Below are positions 3,924 through 62,362 of a stretch of DNA of 64,000 nucleotides, piece by piece. The DNA comes from an uncultured Gammaproteobacteria bacterium (GTDB taxonomy: Bacteria > Patescibacteriota > Patescibacteriia > Magasanikbacterales > UBA922): NCBI GenBank assembly GCA_964566225.1, contig CAZMHV010000003.1, forward strand, positions 91,151 to 155,150. Direction: 5' to 3'. The notes beneath the pieces are model-generated. The model worked only from the letters and a program-made list of their open reading frames with translations, made no database searches and was not told where the DNA came from. The translations under genes and the position numbers were made by a program. Each line of letters starts with the position of its first letter. Positions within the stretch are counted from its first letter, which is position 1.

Positions 3924-4832
3924 ATGGCTCTTGGTAAAGGCTTAGGCTCACTTATTCCAACCAAAAAGGTAGAAACCACCACATCACAAGAAGAAATTTC
4001 TCGTGACTCTGTGAGTGTCCCTGCGGTTTCACCCAAACAAAGTTCAATCAAAAAAGAAGATCAGGTCCTGCATATTCCACTCTCTGAAATTACTCCAAAT
4101 CCAGATCAACCTCGTAAACATTTTTCACATAGTGACTTAGAAGATTTAATTGCTTCTATTAAGCTTCATGGAGTTCTCCAACCAATTTTGGTTTCTGAGA
4201 AATTAACCGGTGGGTATGAACTTATTGCGGGTGAACGACGTTTTCGAGCTTCTGAAATGGCAGGCGTTGCTACTGTTCCTGCACTTATCAAAAAAACCAA
4301 TAATCAAGAACGATTGGAGATTGCTCTGATTGAAAATATTCAGCGTCAAGATTTGAATCCTATTGAAGAAGCTTTTGCGTATCGTCGTCTTACTGAAGAA
4401 TTTGGTTTGAAGCAAGATGAAGTGGCACAGCGTGTGGGCAAAAGTCGTCCTGCGGTAACCAATACTATTCGTTTACTTGATCTGCCAGAAGTTATTCAGC
4501 GTGCTTTGATGGATGGAACACTCAGTACCAGTAAAGCACGTGCTATTTTGAGTTTGCGTTCACAAGATGAACAAATAAAAATGTTTCAAAACATGATGGG
4601 TGGGCATGTAACCGTACGTGATGTTGAAACTGCCGTTGCCCTGCAGGGGAGTCGGTCACGTAAAGGTTCTGTACGTCGTGATCCACAAATTTACGAAGTT
4701 GAAAAACAGTTAGAAGACAGGTTTGGAACCAAAGTAAAAATTACCCAAAAGGGTGAACGAGGGACGGTTGTACTGGAGTATTATTCCAAAGATGAACTCA
4801 AAAAAATGGTTGATGATTTGCTTCAAAGATAA
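3924..4832 (+). CDS. parB: Chromosome partitioning protein ParB/Spo0J
   Basis: ParB box LQPILVS...GGYELIAGERRFRASEMAGVATVPALI, immediately downstream of parA. Confidence 0.85.
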   Translation: MALGKGLGSLIPTKKVETTTSQEEISRDSVSVPAVSPKQSSIKKEDQVLHIPLSEITPNPDQPRKHFSHSDLEDLIASIKLHGVLQPILVSEKLTGGYELIAGERRFRASEMAGVATVPALIKKTNNQERLEIALIENIQRQDLNPIEEAFAYRRLTEEFGLKQDEVAQRVGKSRPAVTNTIRLLDLPEVIQRALMDGTLSTSKARAILSLRSQDEQIKMFQNMMGGHVTVRDVETAVALQGSRSRKGSVRRDPQIYEVEKQLEDRFGTKVKITQKGERGTVVLEYYSKDELKKMVDDLLQR

Positions 4833-6546: not shown

Positions 6547-6662
6547 GGCCTATTAAAATTCAAAATAGCCAAAAGAGTCTTGTGAGGAGTTTTTTGGGTG
6601 TTTTGGAGTGTTTAATTGTTTTCACCTTTTTTTCGCGAATGTGTTCGCGATGGAGTACTGAC

Positions 6663-7178
6663 ATGGGTTTTTTTCTCATGGTGCCGTTTTCGCTTTTCGG
6701 CATGGGCGTGGCGGTGGTTCTGGGCCTGGTTCTCTTGGCCTGGATTGGTGAGGCGGTGCTGACCGCCTTGATCTGGGCTTTCTCGATCGGGCTTGGCCTT
6801 GCGGGCTTGGTGTTTCTGTTTCGGTGGATTTACCGGGACAAAACGCCTTGGCATCTGCCGCAGGTCCAGCCTCCACCACCGTCTCCCCCGGAACCGTTTC
6901 CGCGAGTTCCTCGGGGCAGTTCACCCTCAATGGTCATCATCGAGGGGGTGCAGATTGTTGTGCAGTCAGGGGCGAATCTGCACATTCATTTGCATGCCGG
7001 CGGCGGGGAGGATCCACCAAACGTTCGTGTCGTCCCCTCACAGTCTCGTCCGGTTCGCCCGCAGGGTGAACCTGCGAAACCTTCGCCGAAAATCATCCCC
7101 CCACAGAACGGTCGTGGCCCCACCTTTGGGGACTGGAACGACCGCTATGGTGGGGGTGACGACGACGAAGACGACTGA
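6663..7178 (+). CDS. GC-rich hypothetical protein: two predicted TM helices, a Pro-rich middle (QPPPPSPPEPFP) and an acidic tail (GGGDDDEDD). Alternative in-frame starts lie at 6582 (GTG) and 6639.
   Basis: Long ORF with high third-position G/C in an AT-rich genome. A GGAG sits 7 nt before the 6663 ATG. Hydrophobic N-terminus GMGVAVVLGLVLLAWIGEAVLTALIWAFSIGLGLAGLVFLF. Confidence 0.5.
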   Translation: MGFFLMVPFSLFGMGVAVVLGLVLLAWIGEAVLTALIWAFSIGLGLAGLVFLFRWIYRDKTPWHLPQVQPPPPSPPEPFPRVPRGSSPSMVIIEGVQIVVQSGANLHIHLHAGGGEDPPNVRVVPSQSRPVRPQGEPAKPSPKIIPPQNGRGPTFGDWNDRYGGGDDDEDD

Positions 7179-25129: not shown

Positions 25130-25399
25130 TCAGGCGGCCTTCGCGGCGATGGTGAGCGTCGGCTTCTGGGGCTTCGCGTACAGGCGCGTGCCCGCGTTGT
25201 TCGTGATGATCACGTTCAGGTTGTGATCCTTCGCGAACTCGGCCAGGCGAGTCCCCCCGTCGTGCGTGAGGGCCGTGTAGTGGTTGTCCCAGTTCGCCGG
25301 CTTGGGCAGCCCGATCCACTCATAGTCGAACACCAGGGCCGCGAGCTGTCGAGCATCCGGTCCGTTCACAATCACCGGGATCTTGCATGCAATGTTCAT
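25130..25399 (-). CDS. GC-rich small hypothetical protein (90 aa), possibly a gene fragment
   Basis: MNIACKIPVIVNGPDARQLAALVFDYEWIGLPKPANWDNHYTALTHDGGTRLAEF... A minus-strand promoter-like TTGATT-N16-TATACT lies ~60 nt upstream. Confidence 0.4.
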   Translation of the reverse strand: MNIACKIPVIVNGPDARQLAALVFDYEWIGLPKPANWDNHYTALTHDGGTRLAEFAKDHNLNVIITNNAGTRLYAKPQKPTLTIAAKAA

Positions 25400-25518
25400 T
25401 TTGTTCGCAGATCTTTCACTTACTTGGTTGACTTCACACGCATCTTGGATGCGCGCCGCTAGTATACTCTTTTCCCACAAAAAATCAAGGTTATTTGGCT
25501 TATTTATCCACAAAACAA

Positions 25519-25548
25519 AAAACACCCCGTTTAGGGGGTGTTTTTTGA
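25519..25548. terminator. Bidirectional terminator at the radA 3' end
   Basis: aaaaaacacccc-gttta-ggggtgtttttt. Confidence 0.55.
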
Positions 25549-25574
25549 TATATTTTATGCGAATTACGGATTCT

Positions 25575-26927
25575 CTATGTATGTTTAATAAGCTCAGCAA
25601 TATTTTGTACATTCACCACTTTCAACTTGGTGTCTTGTTTCAAGGCCCCTTTTACTGTGGTCAAAACTCGTTTCATCCCCAGTTGTTCACATTCTTTCAC
25701 TCGTTTTTCCAAAAATCTCACTGACCGAATTTCTCCTCCAAGTCCTACTTCACCAAAAACTGCGAGGTCATTGCCGAGGGCCTTGTCTTTGTATGCACTC
25801 GCCACAGCCAAGGCCACGGCCAAGTCCGCACCAGGTTCATCGGCCACAATTCCACCCACCACATTCACATGCACATCGTATTGTGATAAATTCAAATTGG
25901 CTCGCTTTTGCAAAACGGCAATGAGTACATGCAAACGATTCAAATCAAAACCACTGGCTTTTCGTACAGGGTAACCAAACACCGTTTTATTTACGAGTGC
26001 CTGAATTTCAACCAGCAGGGGACGTGAACCCTCAAGTAAGCAAGTAACCACACTCCCTGGCATGCTCTCACCACGTTCAGAGAGCAATCGTTCGGACGGA
26101 TTGATCACCTCGGCCAAGCCTTCACTATTCATTTCAAACATGCCAATTTCATCAGTCGATCCAAAACGATTTTTCACTGCACGCAAAATGCGAATGTCAT
26201 GGTAGCGATCTCCTTCAAGATACAAAACTGTATCGACCAAATGTTCGAGTGTTCTTGGCCCAGCCACAGATCCTTCTTTGGTCACATGTCCAATCAAAAT
26301 AATCGCAGTACCAGAAGATTTAGCCACTTCGAGGAGTTTTACCGCACAGGCACGAACCTGTGACACATTGCCTGCTTCACCTTCAATTTCATCAGAAAAA
26401 ATAGTTTGAATCGAGTCAATAATAGCAAGAGCGGGTTTGTGTTCAATGAGTGTGGCAATAATCGTTTCTACATTAGTTTCATTGGCAAGTTGAAGTGTAG
26501 GTTTTTGTACAGGCATCCGATCAGCACGGAGTTTAATTTGTTCTACCGACTCTTCACCAGAAATATACAAAGTTTTTTCAATGGCAGTGGCAATCTGCAA
26601 ACTCAAAGTTGATTTACCAATTCCTGGTTCACCACCAAGCAAAAGAAAACTCCCTGGCACAATGCCACCCCCGAGTACGCGGTCAAGTTCATGGTTTCCG
26701 GTCAAGATTCTTTTTACATCACCAGGCTGAATATCTGACAAAGAAACTATTTTCGCAGAGGCATGTTTGGCTCCACTGGCAGATGTGCCTGTTGCAACTT
26801 TGGCGTCTTTTTGCACAGCCTCCTGAGGAATGGTGCCCCATTTTCCACATTCCAAACATCGCCCAGCCCATTTTTGGTACTGTGCGCCACAATTGGTGCA
26901 TTCAAATATTTGTTGTATTTTGGCCAT
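25575..26927 (-). CDS. radA: DNA repair protein RadA (Sms)
   Basis: N-terminal zinc finger CTNCGAQYQKWAGRCLECGKWGT, RecA-like Walker A GEPGIGKST, and a Lon-like C-terminal domain. Confidence 0.9.
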   Translation of the reverse strand: MAKIQQIFECTNCGAQYQKWAGRCLECGKWGTIPQEAVQKDAKVATGTSASGAKHASAKIVSLSDIQPGDVKRILTGNHELDRVLGGGIVPGSFLLLGGEPGIGKSTLSLQIATAIEKTLYISGEESVEQIKLRADRMPVQKPTLQLANETNVETIIATLIEHKPALAIIDSIQTIFSDEIEGEAGNVSQVRACAVKLLEVAKSSGTAIILIGHVTKEGSVAGPRTLEHLVDTVLYLEGDRYHDIRILRAVKNRFGSTDEIGMFEMNSEGLAEVINPSERLLSERGESMPGSVVTCLLEGSRPLLVEIQALVNKTVFGYPVRKASGFDLNRLHVLIAVLQKRANLNLSQYDVHVNVVGGIVADEPGADLAVALAVASAYKDKALGNDLAVFGEVGLGGEIRSVRFLEKRVKECEQLGMKRVLTTVKGALKQDTKLKVVNVQNIAELIKHT

Positions 26928-40491: not shown

Positions 40492-40842
40492 ATGAGTGAT
40501 AGTGTTGTTGTTCATGCTGAAGAAGCTTTTGAAAGAAGACGTCGTCAACATGAAATTGATAAAATGGCCCGGTTTTATCTTGTTTTTCATGCACAATTAG
40601 AAAGTTATTTGGTTCTTGCCAGATGTTCATATGAAGAAAGACTCAAATTTCATCGTAATTGTAAAATGATTTATGATAAAATAGTTCGTCAAATAGTTGA
40701 GCAAAATAAAAGTCCCTATGAAACAGATTTTGCTGAATTTTTGGAATTATTTAAGTCAGAAATAACAATAAATCCTGTATTTACGAGTATTGTTTCAACT
40801 GAAATTGTGGAACTTCTTCAACATTCACACGATTCGCTTTAA
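40492..40842 (+). CDS. Hypothetical protein (116 aa)
   Basis: Tightly packed between rseP and pheS. No domain recognised. Confidence 0.45.
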   Translation: MSDSVVVHAEEAFERRRRQHEIDKMARFYLVFHAQLESYLVLARCSYEERLKFHRNCKMIYDKIVRQIVEQNKSPYETDFAEFLELFKSEITINPVFTSIVSTEIVELLQHSHDSL

Positions 40843-40876
40843 AAAATGTTCTCCTTTAGTGTATAAGTGTACTTTT

Positions 40877-41908
40877 ATGAAAGACCAACTCGAAAAAATA
40901 AAAAAACAATTTGAAAAAGAATTAAACGATGTGAAAGATTTTTTGAAGCTTGATGAATTGGATCAGAAATTTTTTTCACGTAAGTCCGGTAAATTTACTT
41001 CCCTCATGAAAGATCTTGGGGCTGTTGCCGAAGATAAAAGAAAAGAACTTGGGCGTTTGATCAATGAAACCAAAGCAGAAGTAGAAGCCTTGTTTACCAG
41101 TAAAAAACAAGAACTTGAACAAGCAAAAATGGCACAACTTGCAAGTGAAGAATGGATCGATGTGACACAGCCTGCACTTGGTGAAGTGGCTCGTGGACAT
41201 TTGCACCCAAATACACAAATTCAATACCAACTCGAAGATTTATTTCGCTCCATGGGTTTTATGGTACAAGACGGACCTGAACTCGAGAGTGATTTTTATA
41301 ATTTCACGGCTCTCAATATTCCAAGTGATCACCCAGCGCGTGACATGCAAGATACTTTGTATATCAAAGGTCACAGTGACTGGCTCATGCGCACACAAAC
41401 TTCACCAATGCAAATTCGTGCCATGAAAAAATTTGGTGTGCCACTTCGTTTGGTGGTGCCAGGTCGTGTGTTTCGTAATGAATCCACAGATCCACGTCAC
41501 GAACATACGTTTTACCAAGTAGAAGGTGTGGTGATTGATAAAGAAATTACTTTTAGTCACATGAAAGGCGTGCTTGAAGCCGTGGCCAAATTTTTGTATG
41601 GACCCGAAACCGAAGTACGCATGCGTCCTAAGTTTTATCCATTTGTGGAGCCAGGTGTCAACGGAGAAGTGACTTGCTTTTTGTGCAAGGGCGCTGGCTG
41701 CCGTGTGTGCAAGCAAACTGGTTGGCTCGAAGTTTTTGGCGCTGGCATGATTCACAAAAATGTCTTAAAAGAAGGTGGTGTGGATAGTGAACAATACCAA
41801 GGCTTTGCGTTTGGACTTGGACTTTCACGACTCGTGATGCTTAAATATGGCATTGAAGATGTGCGTCATTTTCAAAGTGGAGATTTACGCTTTTTGAATC
41901 AATTCTAA
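40877..41908 (+). CDS. pheS: Phenylalanine--tRNA ligase alpha subunit
   Basis: Class II core NIPSDHPARDMQDTLYI and FRNE...GAG motifs. Start chosen at MKDQLEKIKKQ. Confidence 0.9.
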   Translation: MKDQLEKIKKQFEKELNDVKDFLKLDELDQKFFSRKSGKFTSLMKDLGAVAEDKRKELGRLINETKAEVEALFTSKKQELEQAKMAQLASEEWIDVTQPALGEVARGHLHPNTQIQYQLEDLFRSMGFMVQDGPELESDFYNFTALNIPSDHPARDMQDTLYIKGHSDWLMRTQTSPMQIRAMKKFGVPLRLVVPGRVFRNESTDPRHEHTFYQVEGVVIDKEITFSHMKGVLEAVAKFLYGPETEVRMRPKFYPFVEPGVNGEVTCFLCKGAGCRVCKQTGWLEVFGAGMIHKNVLKEGGVDSEQYQGFAFGLGLSRLVMLKYGIEDVRHFQSGDLRFLNQF

Positions 41909-41909
41909 T

Positions 41910-42596
41910 ATGCAGTCGAGCCAAACAGTTTGGATGGGACTGGGCATATTTGAACGACTCTATGCTGAGTCAAAGATTGAAAATTACTTTGAATCATTAA
42001 ATGATTTGCCAAATAAAAAAATTTTTATTTTGGCAGATGAAATTACTGGTTGTAACAATTTTGTATTAAGTTCAAAAAAATTTGATTTAGTAAATGACAA
42101 AAAAATTCTTGAAAACCAAATTGAAAAATCACATCAAAAATTTGTACCTAAATATAATTTTATTAACGGATTGATAAAAGAATCAGGATATCAAAAGAAA
42201 TGGAAAGTTGAATACTGGAGTATTCTCAGTAAAGACAAAGAATTTCAAAAACTTTATAGAGATATAAAAGATGCAATTGAAAGATTTGAAAATTATTACT
42301 TAAAAAAAGAAGTAATTCGTGTGACTATTTTTGGATTTGGAGCACGCTTACGAAAAAATTTTACTGAGAGTTTTGTAAATTTCGTTTTTGATAAAAATTT
42401 TTATCGATACCTCGAAACATTATCGGAGTATACTCTTGCAGAAGTTGTTGCAACATTACATTTAGCAAAAAAAGGTTATATAAAAGCAGGGCATGAAGAA
42501 GAAAAACCATTTGATGAACTTTCTACACTGTGTTATGAAAGATTTAAAAAGGAGTTTTTTCAAGATATGAATGCTCCTGAATATTATTATATTTAG
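41910..42596 (+). CDS. Hypothetical protein (228 aa), encoded on very AT-rich DNA inserted between pheS and pheT
   Basis: Uninterrupted ORF with a Lys/Glu/Phe/Tyr-rich composition. No domain recognised. Confidence 0.5.
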   Translation: MQSSQTVWMGLGIFERLYAESKIENYFESLNDLPNKKIFILADEITGCNNFVLSSKKFDLVNDKKILENQIEKSHQKFVPKYNFINGLIKESGYQKKWKVEYWSILSKDKEFQKLYRDIKDAIERFENYYLKKEVIRVTIFGFGARLRKNFTESFVNFVFDKNFYRYLETLSEYTLAEVVATLHLAKKGYIKAGHEEEKPFDELSTLCYERFKKEFFQDMNAPEYYYI

Positions 42597-42612
42597 GTAG
42601 AGTAGAGATTGT

Positions 42613-43137
42613 ATGAATGTAGCTTATATTGATGGAGCAAACTTACATCGAGGAATATTAGAACTAGGCTGGAAACTTGACTATGAACGTTTTCGTACTT
42701 TTTTGAGAGATAAATATAAGGTTGAAAAGGCGTATATTTTTATTGGTTTAGTAGGGACGCAATCAAACCTTTATACAAAATTACAAAATGGAGGATATGT
42801 AATTATATTTAAACCAACTGTTTTTGATGGAAATGGTAAAGTCAAAGGAAATTGTGACGCAGAATTAGTACTTCAAATGGTTCAAGAATTTTATGAAGAA
42901 AAGTGTGATGTTCCTGTATTAGTTTCTGGTGATGGAGATTTTTCTTGTGTTGTGAGATTTTTATCAGAAAAAGGTAAAAAGCCAATAATTTTATCTCCAA
43001 GTAGAAAACGATGTTCAATACTTTTAAAAAGATCTGATTGTCCCATTACTTTTTTAGAAGAATTAGAGAATAAAATTTCTGGGCAAAATAAAAAAGCCCC
43101 CAATAAGGACGGAACCTTACCAGGGTCTTTTTCGTAG
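42613..43137 (+). CDS. NYN-domain (LabA/YacP-Rae1-like, PIN-fold) putative ribonuclease, 174 aa
   Basis: N-terminal VAYIDGANLHRG and the acidic motif VLVSGDGDF match the NYN pattern IDGxN...SGDxDF. Confidence 0.65.
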   Translation: MNVAYIDGANLHRGILELGWKLDYERFRTFLRDKYKVEKAYIFIGLVGTQSNLYTKLQNGGYVIIFKPTVFDGNGKVKGNCDAELVLQMVQEFYEEKCDVPVLVSGDGDFSCVVRFLSEKGKKPIILSPSRKRCSILLKRSDCPITFLEELENKISGQNKKAPNKDGTLPGSFS

Positions 43138-43192
43138 TTATACCTATAATATATACTAATTTTGATTGAAAGTCAATATTCACTATCCCCAT

Positions 43193-45643
43193 ATGAAACT
43201 CAGTAAAAAATGGCTCCAAGATTTTGTTTTTTTGCCTGATTCACTTTCTGCTCTTGAGCTCGGTCGTGAACTTTCTTTGCGTACGGTAGAAGTTGAAGGT
43301 GTTGAAAATCAAGCCGCTGCTTTTGAAAATATTGTGGTCGGTGAAATCGTGTCGGTTGAAAAACATCCCAATGCTGACAAACTCAAAGTGTGTCAGGTAA
43401 GTGTGGGAAGTGAAACCGTGCAGATTGTGTGCGGTGGAAGCAACGTTGCCGAAAAGATGAAAGTGATTGTGGCCAAAGTTGGTGCCAAAGTACGTTGGCA
43501 TGGTGAAGGTGAACTCATTGAACTTGGCAATGCAACACTCCGTGGAGTCGACTCTGCCGGCATGATTTGTGCTTCAGATGAAGTTGGCCTTGCAGATGTA
43601 TATCCAAAAAAAGATGAAAAAGAAATTGTGGACTTGAGTGGCACCAAAGCCAAGGTAGGCATGAGTCTTGCTGAATTTTTGCACCTTGATGATGTGGTAC
43701 TTGAAGTAGACAACAAATCTTTGTCCAATCGTCCAGATTTGTGGGGACACTATGGCATGGCGCGTGAAATTTCTGCGCTGTACCGAAAAAAGCTCACTCC
43801 CTATGTGGTTCCAGAAATCAAAGGCAGTAGTGAAATGCATATTGATGTGAAAGTTGAAGACAGTGACCTGTGTCCACGCTACATGGCTGTGGCAATTTCT
43901 GGTATTACCATTGCACCGTCACCACAAAAAATTCAGCAGCGTCTTGAGGCCGTAGGTATTCGCCCAATCAATAACATTGTGGATATTACCAACTATGTCA
44001 TGATGGAAATTGGTCAGCCGACCCATGCGTTTGATGCTGCACGTCTTGGCAAAAAATCTATTGTGGTTCGCCGTGCCAAAGAAGGTGAAAAGTTTACGAC
44101 TCTTGATGAAAAAGAACATACCCTCAGTTCAAACATGCTCATGATTACTGATGGTGACAAGAGCTTGGCCCTGGCTGGTGTGATGGGTGGGCAAGAAAGT
44201 GGCATTAGTGATTCCACAACAACGGTTATTTTTGAATCTGCCAACTTTCAAGCGTCTTCTATTCGCAAAACTTCCACAGCTCTTGGACTTCGTACCGATT
44301 CATCTGCTCGATTTGAAAAAGGACTTGATCCTGCGAATGCTGAAATTGCTTTGAAACGTCTTGTTCAACTGACACTTGAAGTTTGTCCTACTGCCAAAGT
44401 AGTGAGTGGCGTGACAGATGTGTCAGCAGTAAAAGCAGAAACTCGTGTGATTGAAATTTCCGATGATCTTGTGAATAAAAAACTTGGTTGCACTGTGGAA
44501 CAAAAACAAGTCATTCAAATTTTGGAAAATCTTGGATTTGCTGTTGCTAAACAAAAAAAGAATTTGCTCGTGACCGTGCCAAGTTTCCGTTACAAAGATG
44601 TGGCTATCAAAGAAGATGTGGTCGAAGAAATTGCTCGTGTGTATGGCTATGAAAAAATTCCTTCAGCCATGCCAGTATTTCGTATTACTCCACCACTTGA
44701 AAACAAACTCAAAAGTTTGGAACGAAAATTAAAAGAAACATTGGCCTTTGAATGTGGATATACTGAAAGTTATAACTATTCATTTGAGTCACCCGAATGG
44801 TTGAAGCGCCTTGGCCTCGACACCTCCATGCATTTGGAATTGGAAAATCCTGTGGCCAAAGACAGACCGTACATTCGTAGAAGTCTTATTCCAAATTTGC
44901 TTGAAAATGTTGAGTCCAACAGTCATCGCTACGACGAAGTAAAAATGTTTGAAAGTGGTCGTGTGTACCGTGTAGAAAAAGCAGGGGACAGAAGTGAACC
45001 CCATGGTGCAGGCTTACTCCCACGACAAGATTTGTACTTGGGTGTGGTGTATGCCAAAAAAGGCGAAGCCGTACCATTTTTTGCTTTAAGTGGTGTGGTG
45101 CAGCAACTCTTTGCGCGCCTCAACGTCAACTACGAACTGCGAAACTCTGAACCAGAATTTGAAAAAACGGAACACACCTTTTTGCATCCAGGCCGCCATG
45201 CGTTTGTGTATGTGAATGGTGCGTGGGTTGGCACGATTGGTGAAGTGCATCCACAGGTGCAGGGGAGTGCGGGCATTGATGAACGCGTGGCAGTGCTGCA
45301 TGTAAATTTAAATCTTTTGTGTGAAAATTTGGTAGAGCAAGTTCGCTACGAACCACTCACCGTTTTCCCTGCAGTGAAACGTGATATTGCATTTGTGTTG
45401 CCTCGCACCGTGATGCACGCCTCTGTGGTGGCCGCATTGCAGGCCGTTGATCCACTCATCCGATCTGTGGAACTCTTTGACATTTACGAAGGTGAAAAAC
45501 TCGGCGCAGGCAAAAAGAGCATGGCCTACCACATTACCTATGCTTCGAGTGATCATACACTGACTGCCGAAGAGGTAGAGAAGGTGCATGGGGCAGTGCT
45601 CAAGGTTTTGGAAAAAGAATTTGAAGCGGAACTACGAAAATAA
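43193..45643 (+). CDS. pheT: Phenylalanine--tRNA ligase beta subunit
   Basis: N-terminal MKLSKKWLQDF, tRNA-binding OB, B3/4 and B5 domains, and C-terminal FDIYEG. About 817 aa. Confidence 0.9.
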   Translation: MKLSKKWLQDFVFLPDSLSALELGRELSLRTVEVEGVENQAAAFENIVVGEIVSVEKHPNADKLKVCQVSVGSETVQIVCGGSNVAEKMKVIVAKVGAKVRWHGEGELIELGNATLRGVDSAGMICASDEVGLADVYPKKDEKEIVDLSGTKAKVGMSLAEFLHLDDVVLEVDNKSLSNRPDLWGHYGMAREISALYRKKLTPYVVPEIKGSSEMHIDVKVEDSDLCPRYMAVAISGITIAPSPQKIQQRLEAVGIRPINNIVDITNYVMMEIGQPTHAFDAARLGKKSIVVRRAKEGEKFTTLDEKEHTLSSNMLMITDGDKSLALAGVMGGQESGISDSTTTVIFESANFQASSIRKTSTALGLRTDSSARFEKGLDPANAEIALKRLVQLTLEVCPTAKVVSGVTDVSAVKAETRVIEISDDLVNKKLGCTVEQKQVIQILENLGFAVAKQKKNLLVTVPSFRYKDVAIKEDVVEEIARVYGYEKIPSAMPVFRITPPLENKLKSLERKLKETLAFECGYTESYNYSFESPEWLKRLGLDTSMHLELENPVAKDRPYIRRSLIPNLLENVESNSHRYDEVKMFESGRVYRVEKAGDRSEPHGAGLLPRQDLYLGVVYAKKGEAVPFFALSGVVQQLFARLNVNYELRNSEPEFEKTEHTFLHPGRHAFVYVNGAWVGTIGEVHPQVQGSAGIDERVAVLHVNLNLLCENLVEQVRYEPLTVFPAVKRDIAFVLPRTVMHASVVAALQAVDPLIRSVELFDIYEGEKLGAGKKSMAYHITYASSDHTLTAEEVEKVHGAVLKVLEKEFEAELRK

Positions 45644-45724
45644 TTTGAAGAAGTGCAATGTGAGGGAACTCGGTTGCACTTTTTTTTACTCGGTAGAGTA
45701 GAGAATATAATTTTGAATTATACT

Positions 45725-46210
45725 ATGATAAAAATTAGTAAATTTACGGGTGATAAAAAAATGTTGATAAATCTCATGGAAGAATTGCAAGATTATTTAG
45801 TTCAAATTGATCCATTACAGTTACGAATTCGCTCATCAAAATTTGGAAAAGTATATACAGAAAATCTCTTTAAAAAAATTAACAAACACAATGGTATAAT
45901 TTATGTTGCAAAAGATAAAAAAAGTATCGTTGGTATGGTTGCTGGAATTATTGAAGAATTTACAAAAAATGATGAAGTAGAAATTGTTCAATTAAAATTT
46001 GCTCGGGTTGAAGAACTTATTGTGAACGAAAAATATCGGGGTAAAAAGATTGGTTCATTACTGATGGATAAAATTGAAAAATATTTTAAAAGTCAAAAAT
46101 GTAATTACATATACGTCAAAGTATTTGAACCCAATAAAAGAACACATAAGCTTTATGAAAAATTAGGATATCAAGATAGAATGGTAGATATGATGAAAAA
46201 AATTTTATAG
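45725..46210 (+). CDS. GNAT family N-acetyltransferase
   Basis: Acetyl-CoA binding motif IVNEKYRGKKIGSLLM. Confidence 0.7.
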   Translation: MIKISKFTGDKKMLINLMEELQDYLVQIDPLQLRIRSSKFGKVYTENLFKKINKHNGIIYVAKDKKSIVGMVAGIIEEFTKNDEVEIVQLKFARVEELIVNEKYRGKKIGSLLMDKIEKYFKSQKCNYIYVKVFEPNKRTHKLYEKLGYQDRMVDMMKKIL

Positions 46211-46235: not shown

Positions 46236-46631
46236 ATGTCCCGTCAACGCGTCTGCGCAATCATCCTCGATAACAAAAAAATTTTCCTGGTCCGTGATTA
46301 CAAGGCAGATTTTTTTAGTATGCCTGGTGGGTCACTGGAAGAGAGTGAAGATCATACTGCGGCCATGGCGCGAGAACTCCAAGAGGAGATTGCTGTGGCA
46401 CTCACAGATATGAAATATTATTTTTCTTTTGATTTGCACAATCAAACATACAATGTGCCACAGACTGATCATGCTTACATTGTTAGCCTTGAAGGGACGC
46501 CTATTTGTTCAAGTGAAATTCGTGAGCTGGGGTGGTTTACTAAAGAAGATATTGTGTCACAAAAGGTAAAAGTGCCTGAGGCATTTTATTCAAAATTATT
46601 TCCGAAGCTTGTTGAAGAAAATTATTTATAA
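46236..46631 (+). CDS. NUDIX hydrolase
   Basis: Nudix box GGSLEESEDHTAAMARELQEEIAV. Confidence 0.75.
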   Translation: MSRQRVCAIILDNKKIFLVRDYKADFFSMPGGSLEESEDHTAAMARELQEEIAVALTDMKYYFSFDLHNQTYNVPQTDHAYIVSLEGTPICSSEIRELGWFTKEDIVSQKVKVPEAFYSKLFPKLVEENYL

Positions 46632-46639
46632 AAAATAAA

Positions 46640-46670
46640 AAACATCCACAACAAATGGATGTTTTTTCAA
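46640..46670. terminator. Bidirectional rho-independent terminator
   Basis: aaaaaacatccac-aacaa-atggatgtttttt. Confidence 0.6.
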
Positions 46671-46783
46671 CTCACCAGAAAAAGTATTTGTCTTGTAAGC
46701 TGACGGGACGTGGGGCAGCACGTCGCGAGTTGAAAGAACGAATTTCCCCTTTTCTGCCCAGGGGACGATGTGGTAGCCAGCCC

Positions 46784-47350
46784 TCAGCTGCCGATGATGT
46801 GCTCGCCGGGGTTGTCCCACCCCAGCCACACCAGGTCCCGCGCACTCGACAGGTCGCCACTGCTGAGCTCGCCGGCGTCCTGTCCCGGGTACATGGTCTG
46901 GATTTCGAAGACCCAGTGGCTTGTGTACCTCATCCTCAGCACCATGGTCATGAGGCTCGTCTTGGGGGCGAGCCGTCGACCGATGGGGAGGAAGAACGCG
47001 GTGGTCCGCTTGTTGAGCGGCTTGTACTCTCCGGCGTCGATGTCCTCCGCCGTGAGCTCGTACAGGGGGATGGTCGACGACCACCCTATGGCAGGGGGGC
47101 CGCCGAAGTCGAGCTGCAGTCGCACCGGCTTGTTGACGCTCGGCACGTTGACCAGCTTCTGGAGCTCCGCCACCAGCACCTGAGCCACCTCGGGGTCGCG
47201 AACGAAGTCGTCGAAGCAGCTCCACTCGGCGAAGTTCCCTGCCAGGGCCAACTTGCGACCGCGGAAGCAGGTTTCGGTGAGCCGCCTGCCCTGTTCGGCC
47301 GGCATGACCACCTCTACCTTCGATTTGTCCTCGAGTTCGAAAAACGGCAT
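46784..47350 (-). CDS. GC-rich hypothetical protein (188 aa)
   Basis: The minus-strand ORF has balanced amino-acid composition and G/C-ending codons. An AAAGGA RBS sits before the ATG. The opposite-strand ORF is Arg/Pro/Gly-rich antisense shadow. Confidence 0.5.
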   Translation of the reverse strand: MPFFELEDKSKVEVVMPAEQGRRLTETCFRGRKLALAGNFAEWSCFDDFVRDPEVAQVLVAELQKLVNVPSVNKPVRLQLDFGGPPAIGWSSTIPLYELTAEDIDAGEYKPLNKRTTAFFLPIGRRLAPKTSLMTMVLRMRYTSHWVFEIQTMYPGQDAGELSSGDLSSARDLVWLGWDNPGEHIIGS

Positions 47351-47472
47351 GTGCCGTCCTTTCTTCAGTGCCGGGACCGTTCCCGGTTTTTTTCTCCATT
47401 ATAGAGAGAGAAAAATCGGGAATGGTTACTACGGCAAAAAGATATCATCTTATATTATGTTTATGTATTTTT

Positions 47473-57710: not shown

Positions 57711-58346
57711 TCAGCTCGGGAGGTCGATCTTGCCAACACCGAGCATTTCGTCTGTGAGGTGCTGCATGTGGAGCACCTGCCAAGTGTTCTGGACCATGGT
57801 CAGCTCCATGATGTGGCCGGGCAGGAGTGGATCCGGGGCGCTGTAGTTGGGAGTCAGATCCTGCAGCAGGGCATCGATGCGACCCGGGTGGGTGTAGACC
57901 ATGATGGTGACGCCGGGCCTGAATTGGCCCAGGTGAGCACGGACGGCTTGGGCTGACCTCATTCCAAATTCCCATACATCATGTCGATAGTATGCCTTCC
58001 TCGCGATCATGTAGACTTCGGGAGTGACTCCCTCGGCTTGCGCTTGAATCTCATCGATGTTCATCCCCGCCGGAGGTGGGCACAGGTTGAAATTCGTGAG
58101 TTCTTGGGCCGTGATCAGCTTTGCTTGACTGCCTCCAATTTCGTTGTACACCATGATTGCCTGCGCAACCATTTTGGGATCTTGCGAGCACAGGATGCTG
58201 TTGATCTGAATCCCCGCGTTGCGCAGGGCGGCGGCTCGTTCCATGAGCCGTCGCTTTTCTGTGATGTCGGGCTTACGATCGTGCCCGCACACGAAGAAAA
58301 AGCGCGACTGGGAAGAGGGGAAGAAAGGGCAGAGTTTGAGAGGCAT
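57711..58346 (-). CDS. GC-rich hypothetical protein (211 aa), start taken at MPLKLCPFF
   Basis: Strong RBS AGGAGA plus a 7-nt spacer before the ATG. N-terminal segment RFFFVCGHDRKPD. High third-position G/C. No confident domain call. Confidence 0.5.
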   Translation of the reverse strand: MPLKLCPFFPSSQSRFFFVCGHDRKPDITEKRRLMERAAALRNAGIQINSILCSQDPKMVAQAIMVYNEIGGSQAKLITAQELTNFNLCPPPAGMNIDEIQAQAEGVTPEVYMIARKAYYRHDVWEFGMRSAQAVRAHLGQFRPGVTIMVYTHPGRIDALLQDLTPNYSAPDPLLPGHIMELTMVQNTWQVLHMQHLTDEMLGVGKIDLPS

Positions 58347-58399
58347 TTGTTTTCTCCTGGTCGGTAGAGTAAGACAGAACGGCACCATTGCCGGCTCCT

Positions 58400-61459: not shown

Positions 61460-62071
61460 TCAGTTGCTCGAGGTCACCGAGCCGTCGGCCGGGTTGAAAA
61501 CCTGGTAGGACAGCTCCTGCATGTCCGACACCACGAGTGCGCCGGAGGGCAGGTCATCCATGTAGTCTTCTTTGAGTACGAGGAAATCGTTGAGCCCGGG
61601 CTCGATGCTGCCCCCGTGGAAGACTACCAAGAGCAGTTCGGTGAGTTCGTCCGTGTCGCGCTCATCGAGCACCTTCGTGACCCGTCGAGCCACTGAGTCG
61701 AAGGGCTCGACACCCTCGGGCAGGGCGGACTGGTCTGCCCACCACTTGATGAACCCCTGGCCGTAGGGCGGAATGCCCTTCTCGGCGTCGCCCTTGGCGA
61801 TGGCGCCGACCCCGCCAGCCGGGTTGAGGCGGGCGTCGGGGTCGTGGACGTTGACCGTGAGGCCCCCCTCCACCAAGATGGCCTGGTATCGGGCGCCGCT
61901 CTCGATCGCCCGGGGCTCCTTGCTGGTCACCAGGTTGATGGTCCTGATGTCCTCGGATCGGCACCGCTTGAGCAGCCAGCGGGCGCTGACGTCGACCTCC
62001 TCCTTGCCGAGAGGGGTGAGCACGTTGTCCTTGTGGGCGCCGTGGCGCGCGGTGGCGACGAAGTTTCCCAT
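61460..62071 (-). CDS. GC-rich histidine phosphatase superfamily protein (phosphoglycerate-mutase-like branch)
   Basis: N-terminal RHG catalytic motif MGNFVATARHGAHKDNVLTPLGKEE. Strong RBS AGGAGA-N7-ATG. High third-position G/C. Confidence 0.6.
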   Translation of the reverse strand: MGNFVATARHGAHKDNVLTPLGKEEVDVSARWLLKRCRSEDIRTINLVTSKEPRAIESGARYQAILVEGGLTVNVHDPDARLNPAGGVGAIAKGDAEKGIPPYGQGFIKWWADQSALPEGVEPFDSVARRVTKVLDERDTDELTELLLVVFHGGSIEPGLNDFLVLKEDYMDDLPSGALVVSDMQELSYQVFNPADGSVTSSN

Positions 62072-62362
62072 GATGGGATCTCCTTGGCAAGGGACGGAGT
62101 AGTTGATTGGCCCGTCCACGATTGCTCACCAGGTAAAATTATTTTTACAGGGTGAGCAACTGTGGACCAGGCTTTTCTCTCAGGTTAATAAGCCAAATTG
62201 TAACGAACCGCAGTATGGTTATTTATAAAAAATCGCTAAAATAAGCAATTTTTATACAACTTTTACCATAACGGTAGAGTGTATCAAAAAATGTTGCTTT
62301 TGTCAATGTATTTGCTGTATACTAAGCCATATAACTGACTGAACTTTTTAATCATTCTGACT

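What the first reader, a model, noticed from the sequence alone, without database searches (positions are those of the whole stretch)
41910..43137. Two-gene, extra-AT-rich insertion (unknown 228-aa protein + NYN/PIN-like nuclease) splitting the pheS-pheT operon
pheS and pheT are almost universally adjacent. Here ~1.2 kb of DNA that is clearly even more AT-rich than the backbone sits between them. It encodes a 228-aa protein with no recognisable domain and a 174-aa NYN-domain protein (IDGANL...VLVSGDGDF; LabA/YacP-Rae1-like predicted RNase). The gaps are 1 nt after pheS and 16 nt between the two genes. A nuclease plus an unknown partner, compositionally distinct and dropped into an essential operon, could be a novel toxin-antitoxin or defence-type pair, or an addiction module hitch-hiking on pheST expression. 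Alternatively the NYN protein could be a Rae1-like ribosome-associated RNase recruited to this operon.
Basis: partly seen in the sequence, partly recalled or inferred. Interest (0 to 1): 0.6.

Follow-up and report, generated by a model that had tools for sequence, protein, structure and literature searches.

The report
Serine-less cyclodipeptide-synthase-like gene inside pheST
Two unrelated accessory genes have landed between the two phenylalanyl-tRNA synthetase genes of a Patescibacteria genome: the "unknown" one belongs to a tiny, well-conserved branch of the tRNA-dependent cyclodipeptide synthase family that lacks that family's catalytic serine, and the other is an ordinary solitary NYN nuclease, so they are not a toxin-antitoxin or defence pair.

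Summary
ORF228 (41910-42596) and an NYN gene (42613-43137) lie between pheS and pheT. Their GC is 29%, against 41% for the window. Four of the six closest of 80 related genomes have pheS and pheT 5-41 nt apart, on a conserved rseP-pheS-pheT-DUF948 backbone.

The "pair" reading fails. ORF228 homologues sit in nine other genomic contexts, and NYN homologues in three. The two genes are never together, and ORF228 is never at pheST. In 13 of the 80 relatives the pheS|pheT junction holds other small AT-rich genes (GIY-YIG, four-helix 23S-IVS protein, NIF3, unknowns). The junction is a recurrent landing site.

- Kept: the amino-group anchor G35/Y178/E182 (AlbC numbering).
- Lost: the nucleophile Ser37 and Tyr202, both Gly in 30 of 30 sequences.
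- Gained: invariant Lys192, Glu198 and Asp202.

I read it as an aminoacyl-tRNA-binding enzyme that works without a seryl-enzyme intermediate. Its product is unknown.

The parts
40877..41908 (+). pheS (phenylalanyl-tRNA synthetase alpha). The likely start is ATG 40877 (MKDQLEKIKK), within the longer mechanical ORF 40790-41908.
   Evidence: Pfam tRNA-synt_2d 1.3e-89 and Phe_tRNA-synt_N. 53-64% identical to PheS of 80 Patescibacteria genomes.
41910..42596 (+). ORF228: a CDPS-fold protein that lacks the catalytic serine. It starts 1 nt after the pheS stop.
41937..41945 (+). Codons G10-L11-G12. G10 corresponds to AlbC G35, which is kept. G12 occupies the place of the CDPS nucleophile Ser37.
   Evidence: HMMER and hhalign alignments. 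Residue map: Gly in 30 of 30 sequences. G12 is the first residue after strand 1 in the model, as Ser37 sits in the beta3-alpha2 loop of AlbC.
42429..42443 (+). Codons Y174-T-L-A-E178. They correspond to AlbC Y178...E182, the anchor for the alpha-amino group of the aminoacyl moiety.
   Evidence: Aligned to YVLAE of solved CDPSs. Invariant in 30 of 30 sequences. Role taken from PMC3105412.
42483..42515 (+). Codons K192-A-G194-H195-E-E-E198-K-P-F-D202, the clade-specific motif KxGHxxExxxD. G194 replaces AlbC Y202 and H195 matches H203. K192 falls at pocket-1 position L200 and E198 at pocket-2 position T206.
   Evidence: Pocket positions are from PMC5816076.
42613..43137 (+). A solitary LabA/VPA0982-type NYN nuclease, 174 aa. 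The catalytic aspartates D7, D82, D107 and D109 are intact.
43138..43192 (+). A 55-nt AT-rich spacer before pheT. It shows no convincing promoter or terminator.
43193..45643 (+). pheT (phenylalanyl-tRNA synthetase beta).
   Evidence: Pfam B3_4, tRNA_synthFbeta, FDX-ACB, B5 and tRNA_bind.
40492..40842 (+). Context: an AT-rich 116-aa ORF that fills the rseP|pheS junction of the same backbone.
   Evidence: GC3 0.14. Absent from the 80 related loci. In the closest relatives (L009, L010, L012) rseP and pheS are about 58 nt apart.
45653..46210 (+). Context: an AT-rich GNAT acetyltransferase gene that fills the pheT|DUF948 junction.
   Evidence: Pfam Acetyltransf_1 2e-19. GC3 0.20. Absent from the 80 related loci.

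Best explanation
The 1.2-kb segment is a lineage-specific insertion of two unrelated accessory genes into a conserved rseP-pheS-pheT-DUF948 backbone of a Magasanikbacteria-like Patescibacterium. Each gene has its own separate distribution in other genomes. In this group the pheS|pheT junction, like the junctions on either side of it, repeatedly acquires small AT-rich genes, which are then most likely read through from the pheS promoter.

Gene 1 (ORF228) belongs to a very small, strongly conserved clade of the cyclodipeptide synthase (CDPS) / class-Ic aminoacyl-tRNA-synthetase-like superfamily. It keeps the Gly/Tyr/Glu triad that anchors the alpha-amino group of an aminoacyl moiety. It has glycine at the positions of the CDPS nucleophile Ser37 and of Tyr202. 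It has also acquired an invariant Lys, Glu and Asp lining the two substrate pockets.

My inference is that ORF228 binds the aminoacylated 3' end of a tRNA as CDPSs do, but acts on it without a covalent seryl-enzyme intermediate. The likely options are direct transfer of the aminoacyl group to an acceptor bound in the acidic second pocket, or hydrolysis. I therefore do not expect it to be a canonical cyclodipeptide producer.

Gene 2 is a solitary LabA/VPA0982-type NYN metal-dependent ribonuclease with an intact active site. It belongs to a family of thousands that is scattered through Patescibacteria housekeeping operons.

Shown: the insertion, the fold, the residue substitutions, the independence of the two genes, and the NYN type. 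Inferred: co-transcription with pheST, aminoacyl-tRNA as the ligand, and chemistry without a covalent intermediate. The confidence of 0.65 applies to the shown parts taken together. I would put the specific ORF228 mechanism at about 0.3-0.35.
For: Insertion and backbone:
- Of 80 related genomes, 61 have a pheS-pheT gap under 100 nt, and four of the six closest have 5-41 nt.
- Synteny g37722-lemA-rseP-pheS-pheT-DUF948 holds in the nearest relatives.

Recurrent landing site:
- 13 of the 80 carry 350-1,230 bp inserts at the same junction. These hold other genes: GIY-YIG, 23S_rRNA_IVP four-helix proteins, NIF3 and unknowns. The inserts are always more AT-rich than pheS and pheT.
- The only four ORFs in the window with GC3 below 0.21 all sit at junctions of this backbone.

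Independence of the two genes:
- ORF228 homologues lie next to GAPDH (three genomes), between glutaredoxin and HSP20 (three), after an AddA-like helicase, after an M17 peptidase, and in one short contig.
- NYN homologues lie before dnaE, after secY-adk, and before uvrB.
- No locus holds both genes.

Fold and homology of ORF228:
- AF2 pLDDT 89.4.
- Profile A2 hits 9gun at 6.3e-11, 6ez3 at 3.6e-9 and BtCDPS at 5.8e-9.
- Distant relatives P0149 and P0153 pass the Pfam CDPS threshold.
- hhalign gives 91% probability, E 1.2e-7.

Active site of ORF228:
- S37->G12, Y202->G194, Y178->Y174, E182->E178, H203->H195, L200->K192 and T206->E198. Each is found in 29-30 of 30 sequences.
- The S37A mutant of AlbC is inactive and forms no acyl-enzyme (PMC3105412).
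- Mean column identity is 68% over 18 homologues. The best identities, 67% for ORF228 and 64% for PheS, are similar. That argues for purifying selection.

NYN.
Against: - The residue map rests on two sequence-profile alignments plus the secondary-structure register.
- No ligand, tRNA binding or activity has been tested. A serine-less CDPS-fold protein could equally be a binding-only pseudoenzyme.
- Some distant relatives carry a Ser two residues after the Gly (GxGxS). That Ser could act as a displaced nucleophile in them. ORF228 has an invariant Phe at that position.
- Co-transcription is inferred from spacing alone.
- Only nine other ORF228 contexts and three NYN contexts were seen.
- The contig of the closest ORF228 homologue (P0002, 67% identity) was not examined.
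- The 13 inserts at pheS|pheT in relatives may include some that are inherited rather than independent events.
Confidence: 0.65

Rival explanations
1. One reading: ORF228 and NYN form a two-gene toxin-antitoxin, addiction or anti-phage defence module, in which the NYN nuclease is the toxin or effector and ORF228 is its partner.
For: The genes are adjacent, co-directional and 16 nt apart, and both are AT-rich with nearly the same GC3 of 0.17. NYN domains do occur in defence systems: PADLOC gives hits to a LabA-like NYN model at E 1.7e-7 and to HEC-09 at 8.8e-7.
Against: No co-occurrence was found in any of nine other ORF228 contexts, three NYN contexts or 80 pheS loci. ORF228 has an enzyme fold with a conserved pocket, which is not like an antitoxin. 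It gives no PADLOC hit. The PADLOC NYN hit covers only the NYN domain of a 310-residue model. NYN homologues are solitary genes inside housekeeping operons.
Confidence: 0.06
2. ORF228 is a working cyclodipeptide synthase that was placed between pheS and pheT so that it can draw on freshly made Phe-tRNAPhe, making a Phe-containing diketopiperazine.
For: It has a CDPS fold and detectable CDPS homology. Y178, E182 and G35 equivalents are retained. AlbC-type CDPSs use Phe-tRNAPhe (PMC3105412). A Parcubacteria CDPS is known to be active (PMC5816076).
Against: The catalytic Ser37 is Gly in all 30 clade members, and S37A abolishes AlbC activity. Y202 is also Gly, and the N/Y/H or X/Y/P trio is absent. 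ORF228 itself scores nothing against Pfam CDPS at E<=0.1. The pheST location is unique to this genome. No tailoring enzymes are found nearby in any context.
Confidence: 0.08
3. ORF228 is a catalytically dead CDPS/aaRS-like protein that only binds an amino acid or an aminoacyl-tRNA. It would act as a sensor, chaperone or regulator rather than as an enzyme.
For: It has lost the nucleophile but kept the amino-group anchor shared with TyrRS (G35, Y178, E182). It sits in housekeeping operons (gap-pgk, grx, pheST) rather than in biosynthetic clusters.
Against: New residues are invariant across the whole clade and are charged or polar: K192, H195, E198 and D202. Within the ORF228 family R146, R148, K149 and N150 are also invariant. 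They line the two pockets and a mobile loop. That pattern is more typical of catalysis or of a specific second substrate than of plain binding.
Confidence: 0.2
4. The NYN protein is a Rae1/YacP-like ribosome-associated RNase that has been recruited to a translation operon.
For: It has the NYN superfamily fold, is similar in size to Rae1 (about 170 aa), and sits in an aminoacyl-tRNA synthetase operon.
Confidence: 0.05

Closest known systems
Cyclodipeptide synthases (CDPS; Pfam PF16715; AlbC, Rv2275, YvmC, BtCDPS, the Parcubacteria CDPS, and the P. gingivalis putative CDPS 9GUN)
   Different: The nucleophile Ser37 and Tyr202 are both Gly, and Pro184 is not conserved. The residue trio is neither NYH nor XYP. 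Invariant Lys and Glu occupy pocket positions 200 and 206, and there is an extra invariant Asp202. ORF228 itself is not detected by the Pfam CDPS model. It sits in housekeeping operons, not with tailoring enzymes. The CDPS census in PMC5816076 explicitly discarded sequences that lack the catalytic serine.
Class Ic aminoacyl-tRNA synthetase catalytic domains (TyrRS, TrpRS)
   Different: ORF228 has no HIGH or KMSKS motif, no CP1 insertion and no anticodon-binding domain, and it is far shorter.
LabA/VPA0982-type NYN domain proteins (Pfam PF01936; PDB 2QIP; the MARF1 NYN domain)
   Different: It has no accessory domains (no OST-HTH/LOTUS, no RRM). The cellular target is unknown. It belongs to a Patescibacteria-wide subfamily of solitary 165-185-aa proteins.
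Small selfish-looking or accessory genes scattered through Patescibacteria core operons (GIY-YIG, 23S rRNA-IVS four-helix proteins)
   Same: The same junction (pheS|pheT) carries such genes in 13 of 80 relatives. All are AT-rich, co-directional and tightly spaced.
   Different: The window's cargo is different: a CDPS-like enzyme plus NYN. It has no hallmarks of a mobile element.

Membership tests
Cyclodipeptide synthase (CDPS) | Class-Ic aaRS-like Rossmann fold in a single domain of about 220-250 aa | tested here: met
Cyclodipeptide synthase (CDPS) | Match to Pfam PF16715 above the gathering score | tested here: not met
   ORF228 gives no Pfam hit at E<=0.1. Only the distant relatives P0149 (33.8 bits) and P0153 (43.1 bits) pass the 27-bit cut-off. 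Homology is visible only through profile A2.
Cyclodipeptide synthase (CDPS) | Catalytic serine (AlbC Ser37) that forms the aminoacyl-enzyme | tested here: not met
   The aligned position is G12, and it is Gly in 30 of 30 clade members. The S37A mutant is inactive (PMC3105412). Serine-less sequences are excluded from the CDPS census (PMC5816076). This is alignment-based; no 3D superposition was made.
Cyclodipeptide synthase (CDPS) | Conserved G35, Y178 and E182 (anchor for the aminoacyl amino group) | tested here: met
   G10, Y174 and E178 are invariant in 30 of 30 sequences.
Cyclodipeptide synthase (CDPS) | Subfamily trio N40/Y202/H203 (NYH) or X40/Y202/P203 (XYP) | tested here: not met
   The trio is E/D15, G194, H195. 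The tyrosine is Gly in 30 of 30 sequences.
Cyclodipeptide synthase (CDPS) | Uses two aminoacyl-tRNAs and releases a 2,5-diketopiperazine | not testable with these tools
   This needs expression with LC-MS, and aa-tRNA assays.
NYN domain nuclease, LabA/VPA0982 type (PF01936) | HMM match above the gathering score | tested here: met
   55.3 bits against 24.2, E 1.4e-14, residues 5-131.
NYN domain nuclease, LabA/VPA0982 type (PF01936) | Conserved catalytic aspartates and PIN-like fold | tested here: met
Rae1/YacP ribosome-dependent RNase | YacP-type NYN domain (sequence family and fold) | tested here: not met
Toxin-antitoxin or two-gene defence module | The two genes co-occur as a conserved neighbouring pair across genomes | tested here: not met
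   None of nine other ORF228 contexts, three NYN contexts or 80 pheS loci holds both genes.
Toxin-antitoxin or two-gene defence module | Match to a known defence or TA family | tested here: inconclusive
   PADLOC gives nothing for ORF228. For NYN it gives only domain-level hits: PDLC01154 at 1.7e-7 over positions 150-303 of 310, and HEC-09 at 8.8e-7.
Toxin-antitoxin or two-gene defence module | Toxicity of one gene that is neutralised by the other | not testable with these tools
   This needs expression assays.
Mobile genetic element insertion | Target-site duplication, terminal inverted repeats, or a transposase or integrase gene | tested here: not met
   No flanking repeats beyond short chance matches. 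There is no recombinase in the segment. No relatives of ORF228 were found in viral contigs.

The most novel reading that the evidence does not exclude
The ORF228 clade is a new class of aminoacyl-tRNA-dependent enzyme built on the CDPS scaffold. It comprises about 20 sequence clusters, seen only in Magasanikbacteria-like Patescibacteria, plus a thin fringe of distant relatives. It would work without the seryl-enzyme intermediate, using the retained Tyr/Glu anchor together with the new invariant Lys192, His195, Glu198 and Asp202. The reaction could be transfer of an aminoacyl group directly to a non-tRNA acceptor, or hydrolysis of a particular aminoacyl-tRNA. Its embedding in core operons (pheST here; gap-pgk and glutaredoxin elsewhere) would then point to a housekeeping or stress role rather than secondary metabolism.
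Probability: 0.3. Interest if true: 0.75.

Novelty: new variant of a known kind. Interest (0 to 1): 0.5.

Why it matters
CDPSs are one of the few enzyme families that divert aminoacyl-tRNAs away from translation, and surveys of the family have discarded serine-less sequences by design. Here there is a conserved serine-less clade with its own invariant pocket residues, in bacteria with minimal genomes, embedded in essential operons. That gives a concrete, cheap-to-test candidate for new aminoacyl-tRNA-dependent chemistry, or for an aa-tRNA-binding regulator.

The survey also shows that the pheS|pheT junction, usually treated as fixed, is a recurrent landing site for small accessory genes in Patescibacteria. 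This bears on how ultra-small genomes take up and express new genes. It also warns against reading any adjacent pair in such a spot as a functional module.

Tried and rejected
- Direct family searches of ORF228 against Pfam, NCBIfam, PADLOC and PHROGs gave nothing usable.
- A profile of the 18 close homologues alone found no PDB sequence match and gave no hhalign signal against CDPSs (A1 run). Only the profile widened with distant relatives worked.
- The afdb50 fold library was unavailable.
- An exact look-up of the window's own protein found no record, so the source contig could not be named beyond 'ncbi/Logan, 187,920 bp'.
- The third homologue search, with A2, added almost nothing.
- The metagenome scan gave only three short loci.
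- Viral scans gave none for ORF228 and one doubtful locus for NYN.
- Searches for target-site duplications or terminal repeats around the insert found only short chance matches.
- Promoter and terminator scans were at the level of shuffled sequence.
- No tRNA or Rfam element lies near the locus.
- I considered that AT-richness proves recent horizontal arrival, and rejected it. ORF228 and NYN homologues are 2-12 GC points below their host loci in every genome checked, and they track host GC. AT-richness is therefore a trait of these gene families.
- I considered an association of ORF228 with aaRS genes (PheRS here, AspRS in L001, a class-I aaRS in L005). I rejected it as not above what gene-dense small genomes give by chance.
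- Literature searches found no description of serine-less CDPS clades or of Patescibacteria NYN proteins.
Full report
**1. What is there**

The layout is as follows.
- pheS ends at 41908.
- A 228-codon ORF runs from 41910 to 42596.
- A 174-codon ORF runs from 42613 to 43137.
- pheT follows. Its most plausible start is the ATG at 43193 (MKLSKKWLQDF), which leaves a 55-nt AT-rich spacer.

Pfam confirms PheS, PheT and the NYN domain (PF01936, 55.3 bits against a 24.2 cut-off).

The segment is compositionally distinct.
- Its GC is 0.292, against 0.409 for the window. That is the lowest 0.4% of same-size windows.
- GC3 is 0.17 for both genes, against 0.34-0.37 for pheS and pheT.

Promoter- and terminator-like sites are no more frequent than in shuffled sequence. 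No tRNA or Rfam element lies nearby. No flanking direct or inverted repeats suggest a mobile element.

**2. It is an insertion, at a junction that is often used**

A scan of one genome per species for PheS relatives returned 80 Patescibacteria loci (Magasanikbacteria, Falkowbacteria, Uhrbacteria and others) with 53-64% PheS identity.
- In 61 of them pheS and pheT are less than 100 nt apart. Four of the six closest (L009, L010, L011, L014) have gaps of 5-41 nt.
- The nearest relatives share the order g37722-lemA-rseP-pheS-pheT-DUF948-like gene.

So the window's two genes interrupt an ancestral adjacency.

Thirteen of the 80 genomes also have 350-1,230 bp at this junction. The cargo differs each time.
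- GIY-YIG proteins: L025, L039, L043, L052.
- 23S-rRNA-IVS-type four-helix proteins: L024, L028, L034, L035, L060.
- NIF3: L024, L026.
- Unknown proteins: L012, L013, L057.

These inserts are always more AT-rich than the flanking synthetase genes. None encodes an ORF228 or NYN relative.

Within the window, only four of 59 long ORFs have GC3 below 0.21, and all four sit at junctions of this one backbone.
- ORF116 lies between rseP and pheS.
- ORF228 and NYN lie between pheS and pheT.
- A GNAT gene lies after pheT.

The picture is a core operon whose intergenic junctions repeatedly accept small accessory genes.

**3. The two genes are not a pair**

ORF228 has only 19 homologous clusters (50-67% identity) among 5.8 billion proteins. 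The few that carry a source name are labelled Magasanikbacteria or Patescibacteria. I looked at nine other genomic contexts.
- Next to GAPDH in three genomes: L001, L006, L099.
- Between a glutaredoxin gene and HSP20 in three: L004, L005, L101.
- After an AddA-like helicase and a nucleotidyltransferase-like gene: L003.
- After an M17 peptidase: L098.
- In a short contig with unknown neighbours: L102.

The NYN protein belongs to a family with more than 7,900 hits; the source names seen among the best 120 are Patescibacteria groups. Three contexts place it before dnaE, after secY-adk, and before uvrB.

A tblastn of both proteins against every locus fetched finds no locus with both genes, and no ORF228 homologue near pheS or pheT. 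ORF228 and NYN homologues are 2-12 GC points below their host loci wherever they occur. AT-richness is therefore a family trait and does not prove recent joint arrival. The defining property of a toxin-antitoxin or defence pair, conserved co-occurrence, was tested and not met.

**4. ORF228 is a serine-less member of the cyclodipeptide synthase superfamily**

Direct searches of Pfam, NCBIfam, PADLOC and PHROGs find nothing. Structure and wider profiles do.
- An AlphaFold2 model built on 18 homologues is confident: pLDDT 89.4, pTM 0.86.
- Foldseek agrees, with TM scores of 0.6-0.7.
- An exhaustive profile search of 1.84 billion representatives finds only 22 relatives. Two of the distant ones pass the Pfam CDPS threshold.
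- A profile that includes those distant relatives (A2) hits solved CDPSs by sequence: 9GUN 6.3e-11, 6EZ3 3.6e-9, BtCDPS 5.8e-9.
- That profile aligns with an AlbC/Rv2275/YvmC/BtCDPS profile at 91% probability. I confirmed the AlbC sequence against 3OQV.

The two alignments agree on the residue map.

| AlbC residue | ORF228 residue | Conservation in the clade |
|---|---|---|
| G35 | G10 | 30 of 30 |
| Y178 | Y174 | 30 of 30 |
| E182 | E178 | 30 of 30 |
| H203 | H195 | 29 of 30 |
| S37 (nucleophile) | G12 | Gly in 30 of 30 |
| Y202 | G194 | Gly in 30 of 30 |
| L200 (pocket 1) | K192 | Lys in 30 of 30 |
| T206 (pocket 2) | E198 | Glu in 30 of 30 |

D202 is a further invariant residue.

The secondary-structure register fits. 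G12 is the first residue after strand 1, as Ser37 lies in the beta3-alpha2 loop of AlbC. G194 and H195 lie at a strand-helix junction, as Y202 and H203 do.

The published work on AlbC gives the context (PMC3105412).
- Ser37 carries the aminoacyl-enzyme intermediate.
- The S37A mutant is inactive.
- G35, Y178 and E182 superimpose on the TyrRS residues that hold the substrate amino group.

The large CDPS census removed sequences that lack the catalytic serine (PMC5816076). I found no paper describing a serine-less clade.

**5. How ORF228 most likely works**

Shown:
- It has a CDPS fold.
- It keeps the amino-group anchor.
- It has no HIGH or KMSKS motifs.
- It lacks the nucleophile and Tyr202.
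- New invariant charged residues line both pockets.
- An invariant basic loop (R146, R148, K149, N150) falls in the only low-confidence stretch of the model.
- Conservation is strong: mean column identity is 68%, and the best identities (67% for ORF228; 64% for PheS) are similar.

Inferred: it binds an aminoacylated tRNA 3' end as CDPSs do, but processes it without a covalent seryl-enzyme step. The options are direct aminoacyl transfer to an acceptor held in the acidic second pocket, or hydrolysis. I rate this specific mechanism at about 0.3-0.35. A binding-only pseudoenzyme is the main alternative (about 0.2). A canonical Phe-using CDPS is unlikely (about 0.08).

The position between pheS and pheT is unique to this genome. 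It should not be read as a functional link to Phe-tRNA.

**6. The NYN protein**

- D7, D82, D107 and D109 are invariant in 16 homologues. D82 and D107 align with the catalytic aspartates of VPA0982; equivalent aspartates in MARF1 and the B. fragilis NYN are described in bioRxiv 10.1101/2024.04.08.588522.
- Only PF01936 matched in Pfam-A at E<=0.1.

It is an ordinary member of a very large family of solitary LabA-type NYN ribonucleases, and its target is unknown.

**7. Verdict**

The interpretation as a nuclease-plus-partner module is not supported.

The value of the finding lies in two places. The first is a small, conserved, uncharacterised serine-less branch of the CDPS superfamily in Patescibacteria, which is a new variant of a known kind. 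The second is the recurrent use of the pheS|pheT junction as a landing site for accessory genes.

The main caveat is that the residue map is alignment-based and no biochemistry exists.

Noticed in passing
window 40492-40842 (+), 45653-46210 (+), 46236-46631 (+): Other junctions of the same conserved backbone (rseP-pheS-pheT-DUF948) are also filled in this genome. An AT-rich 116-aa ORF with no family match lies before pheS. An AT-rich GNAT gene and a NUDIX gene lie after pheT. None of these is present in the 80 related loci. Together with ORF228 and NYN, ORF116 and GNAT are the only four of 59 ORFs with GC3 below 0.21.
   Followed up: partly
window 46626-47399 (GC 0.60, up to 0.66 locally); also 6582-7178, 25130-25612, 57711-58388, 61460-62119: There are five short GC-rich islands (GC 0.51-0.65, GC3 up to 0.87) in a 41% GC genome. 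Each holds one small ORF. Only 61460-62119 has a family match (His_Phos_1). The island at 46.6-47.4 kb has long ORFs on both strands and sits directly downstream of the pheST accessory genes. This may be foreign DNA from high-GC organisms. It remains unexplained.
   Followed up: partly
L012 7016-7743 and L013 7041-7897 (pheS|pheT junction of two of the closest Magasanikbacteria-like relatives): These genomes carry 242-aa and 285-aa proteins with no Pfam match at exactly the junction where the window has ORF228 and NYN. tblastn detects no similarity to ORF228. Their fold and function were not examined.
   Followed up: no
L001, L006, L099 (GAPDH neighbours); L004, L005, L101 (glutaredoxin ... 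HSP20): ORF228 homologues recur in two contexts: directly beside GAPDH/PGK, and directly after a small glutaredoxin gene near HSP20. This may only reflect inheritance within subclades. It could also hint at a link with thiol or redox stress. It was not tested.
   Followed up: no
L089-L092 (NYN at 4001-4543; pheT ends at about 2069): In one Parcubacteria lineage the NYN homologue lies about 2 kb downstream of pheT and directly upstream of dnaE. It is the only other case where the NYN gene is close to pheT, and it is probably coincidence.
   Followed up: no
P0140 and P0146 (distant hits of the ORF228 profile): Two hits match only the N- or C-terminal 50-60 residues of the ORF228 profile, within proteins that otherwise carry MoxR AAA_3 or peptidase U32 domains. 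These may be fusions, gene-call artefacts or chimeric contigs. This was not resolved.
   Followed up: no
window 43096-43125: An 11-bp-stem hairpin overlaps the 3' end of the NYN gene. It scores as a terminator only on the minus strand (T-run on that strand). On the plus strand it has no T tail.
   Followed up: no
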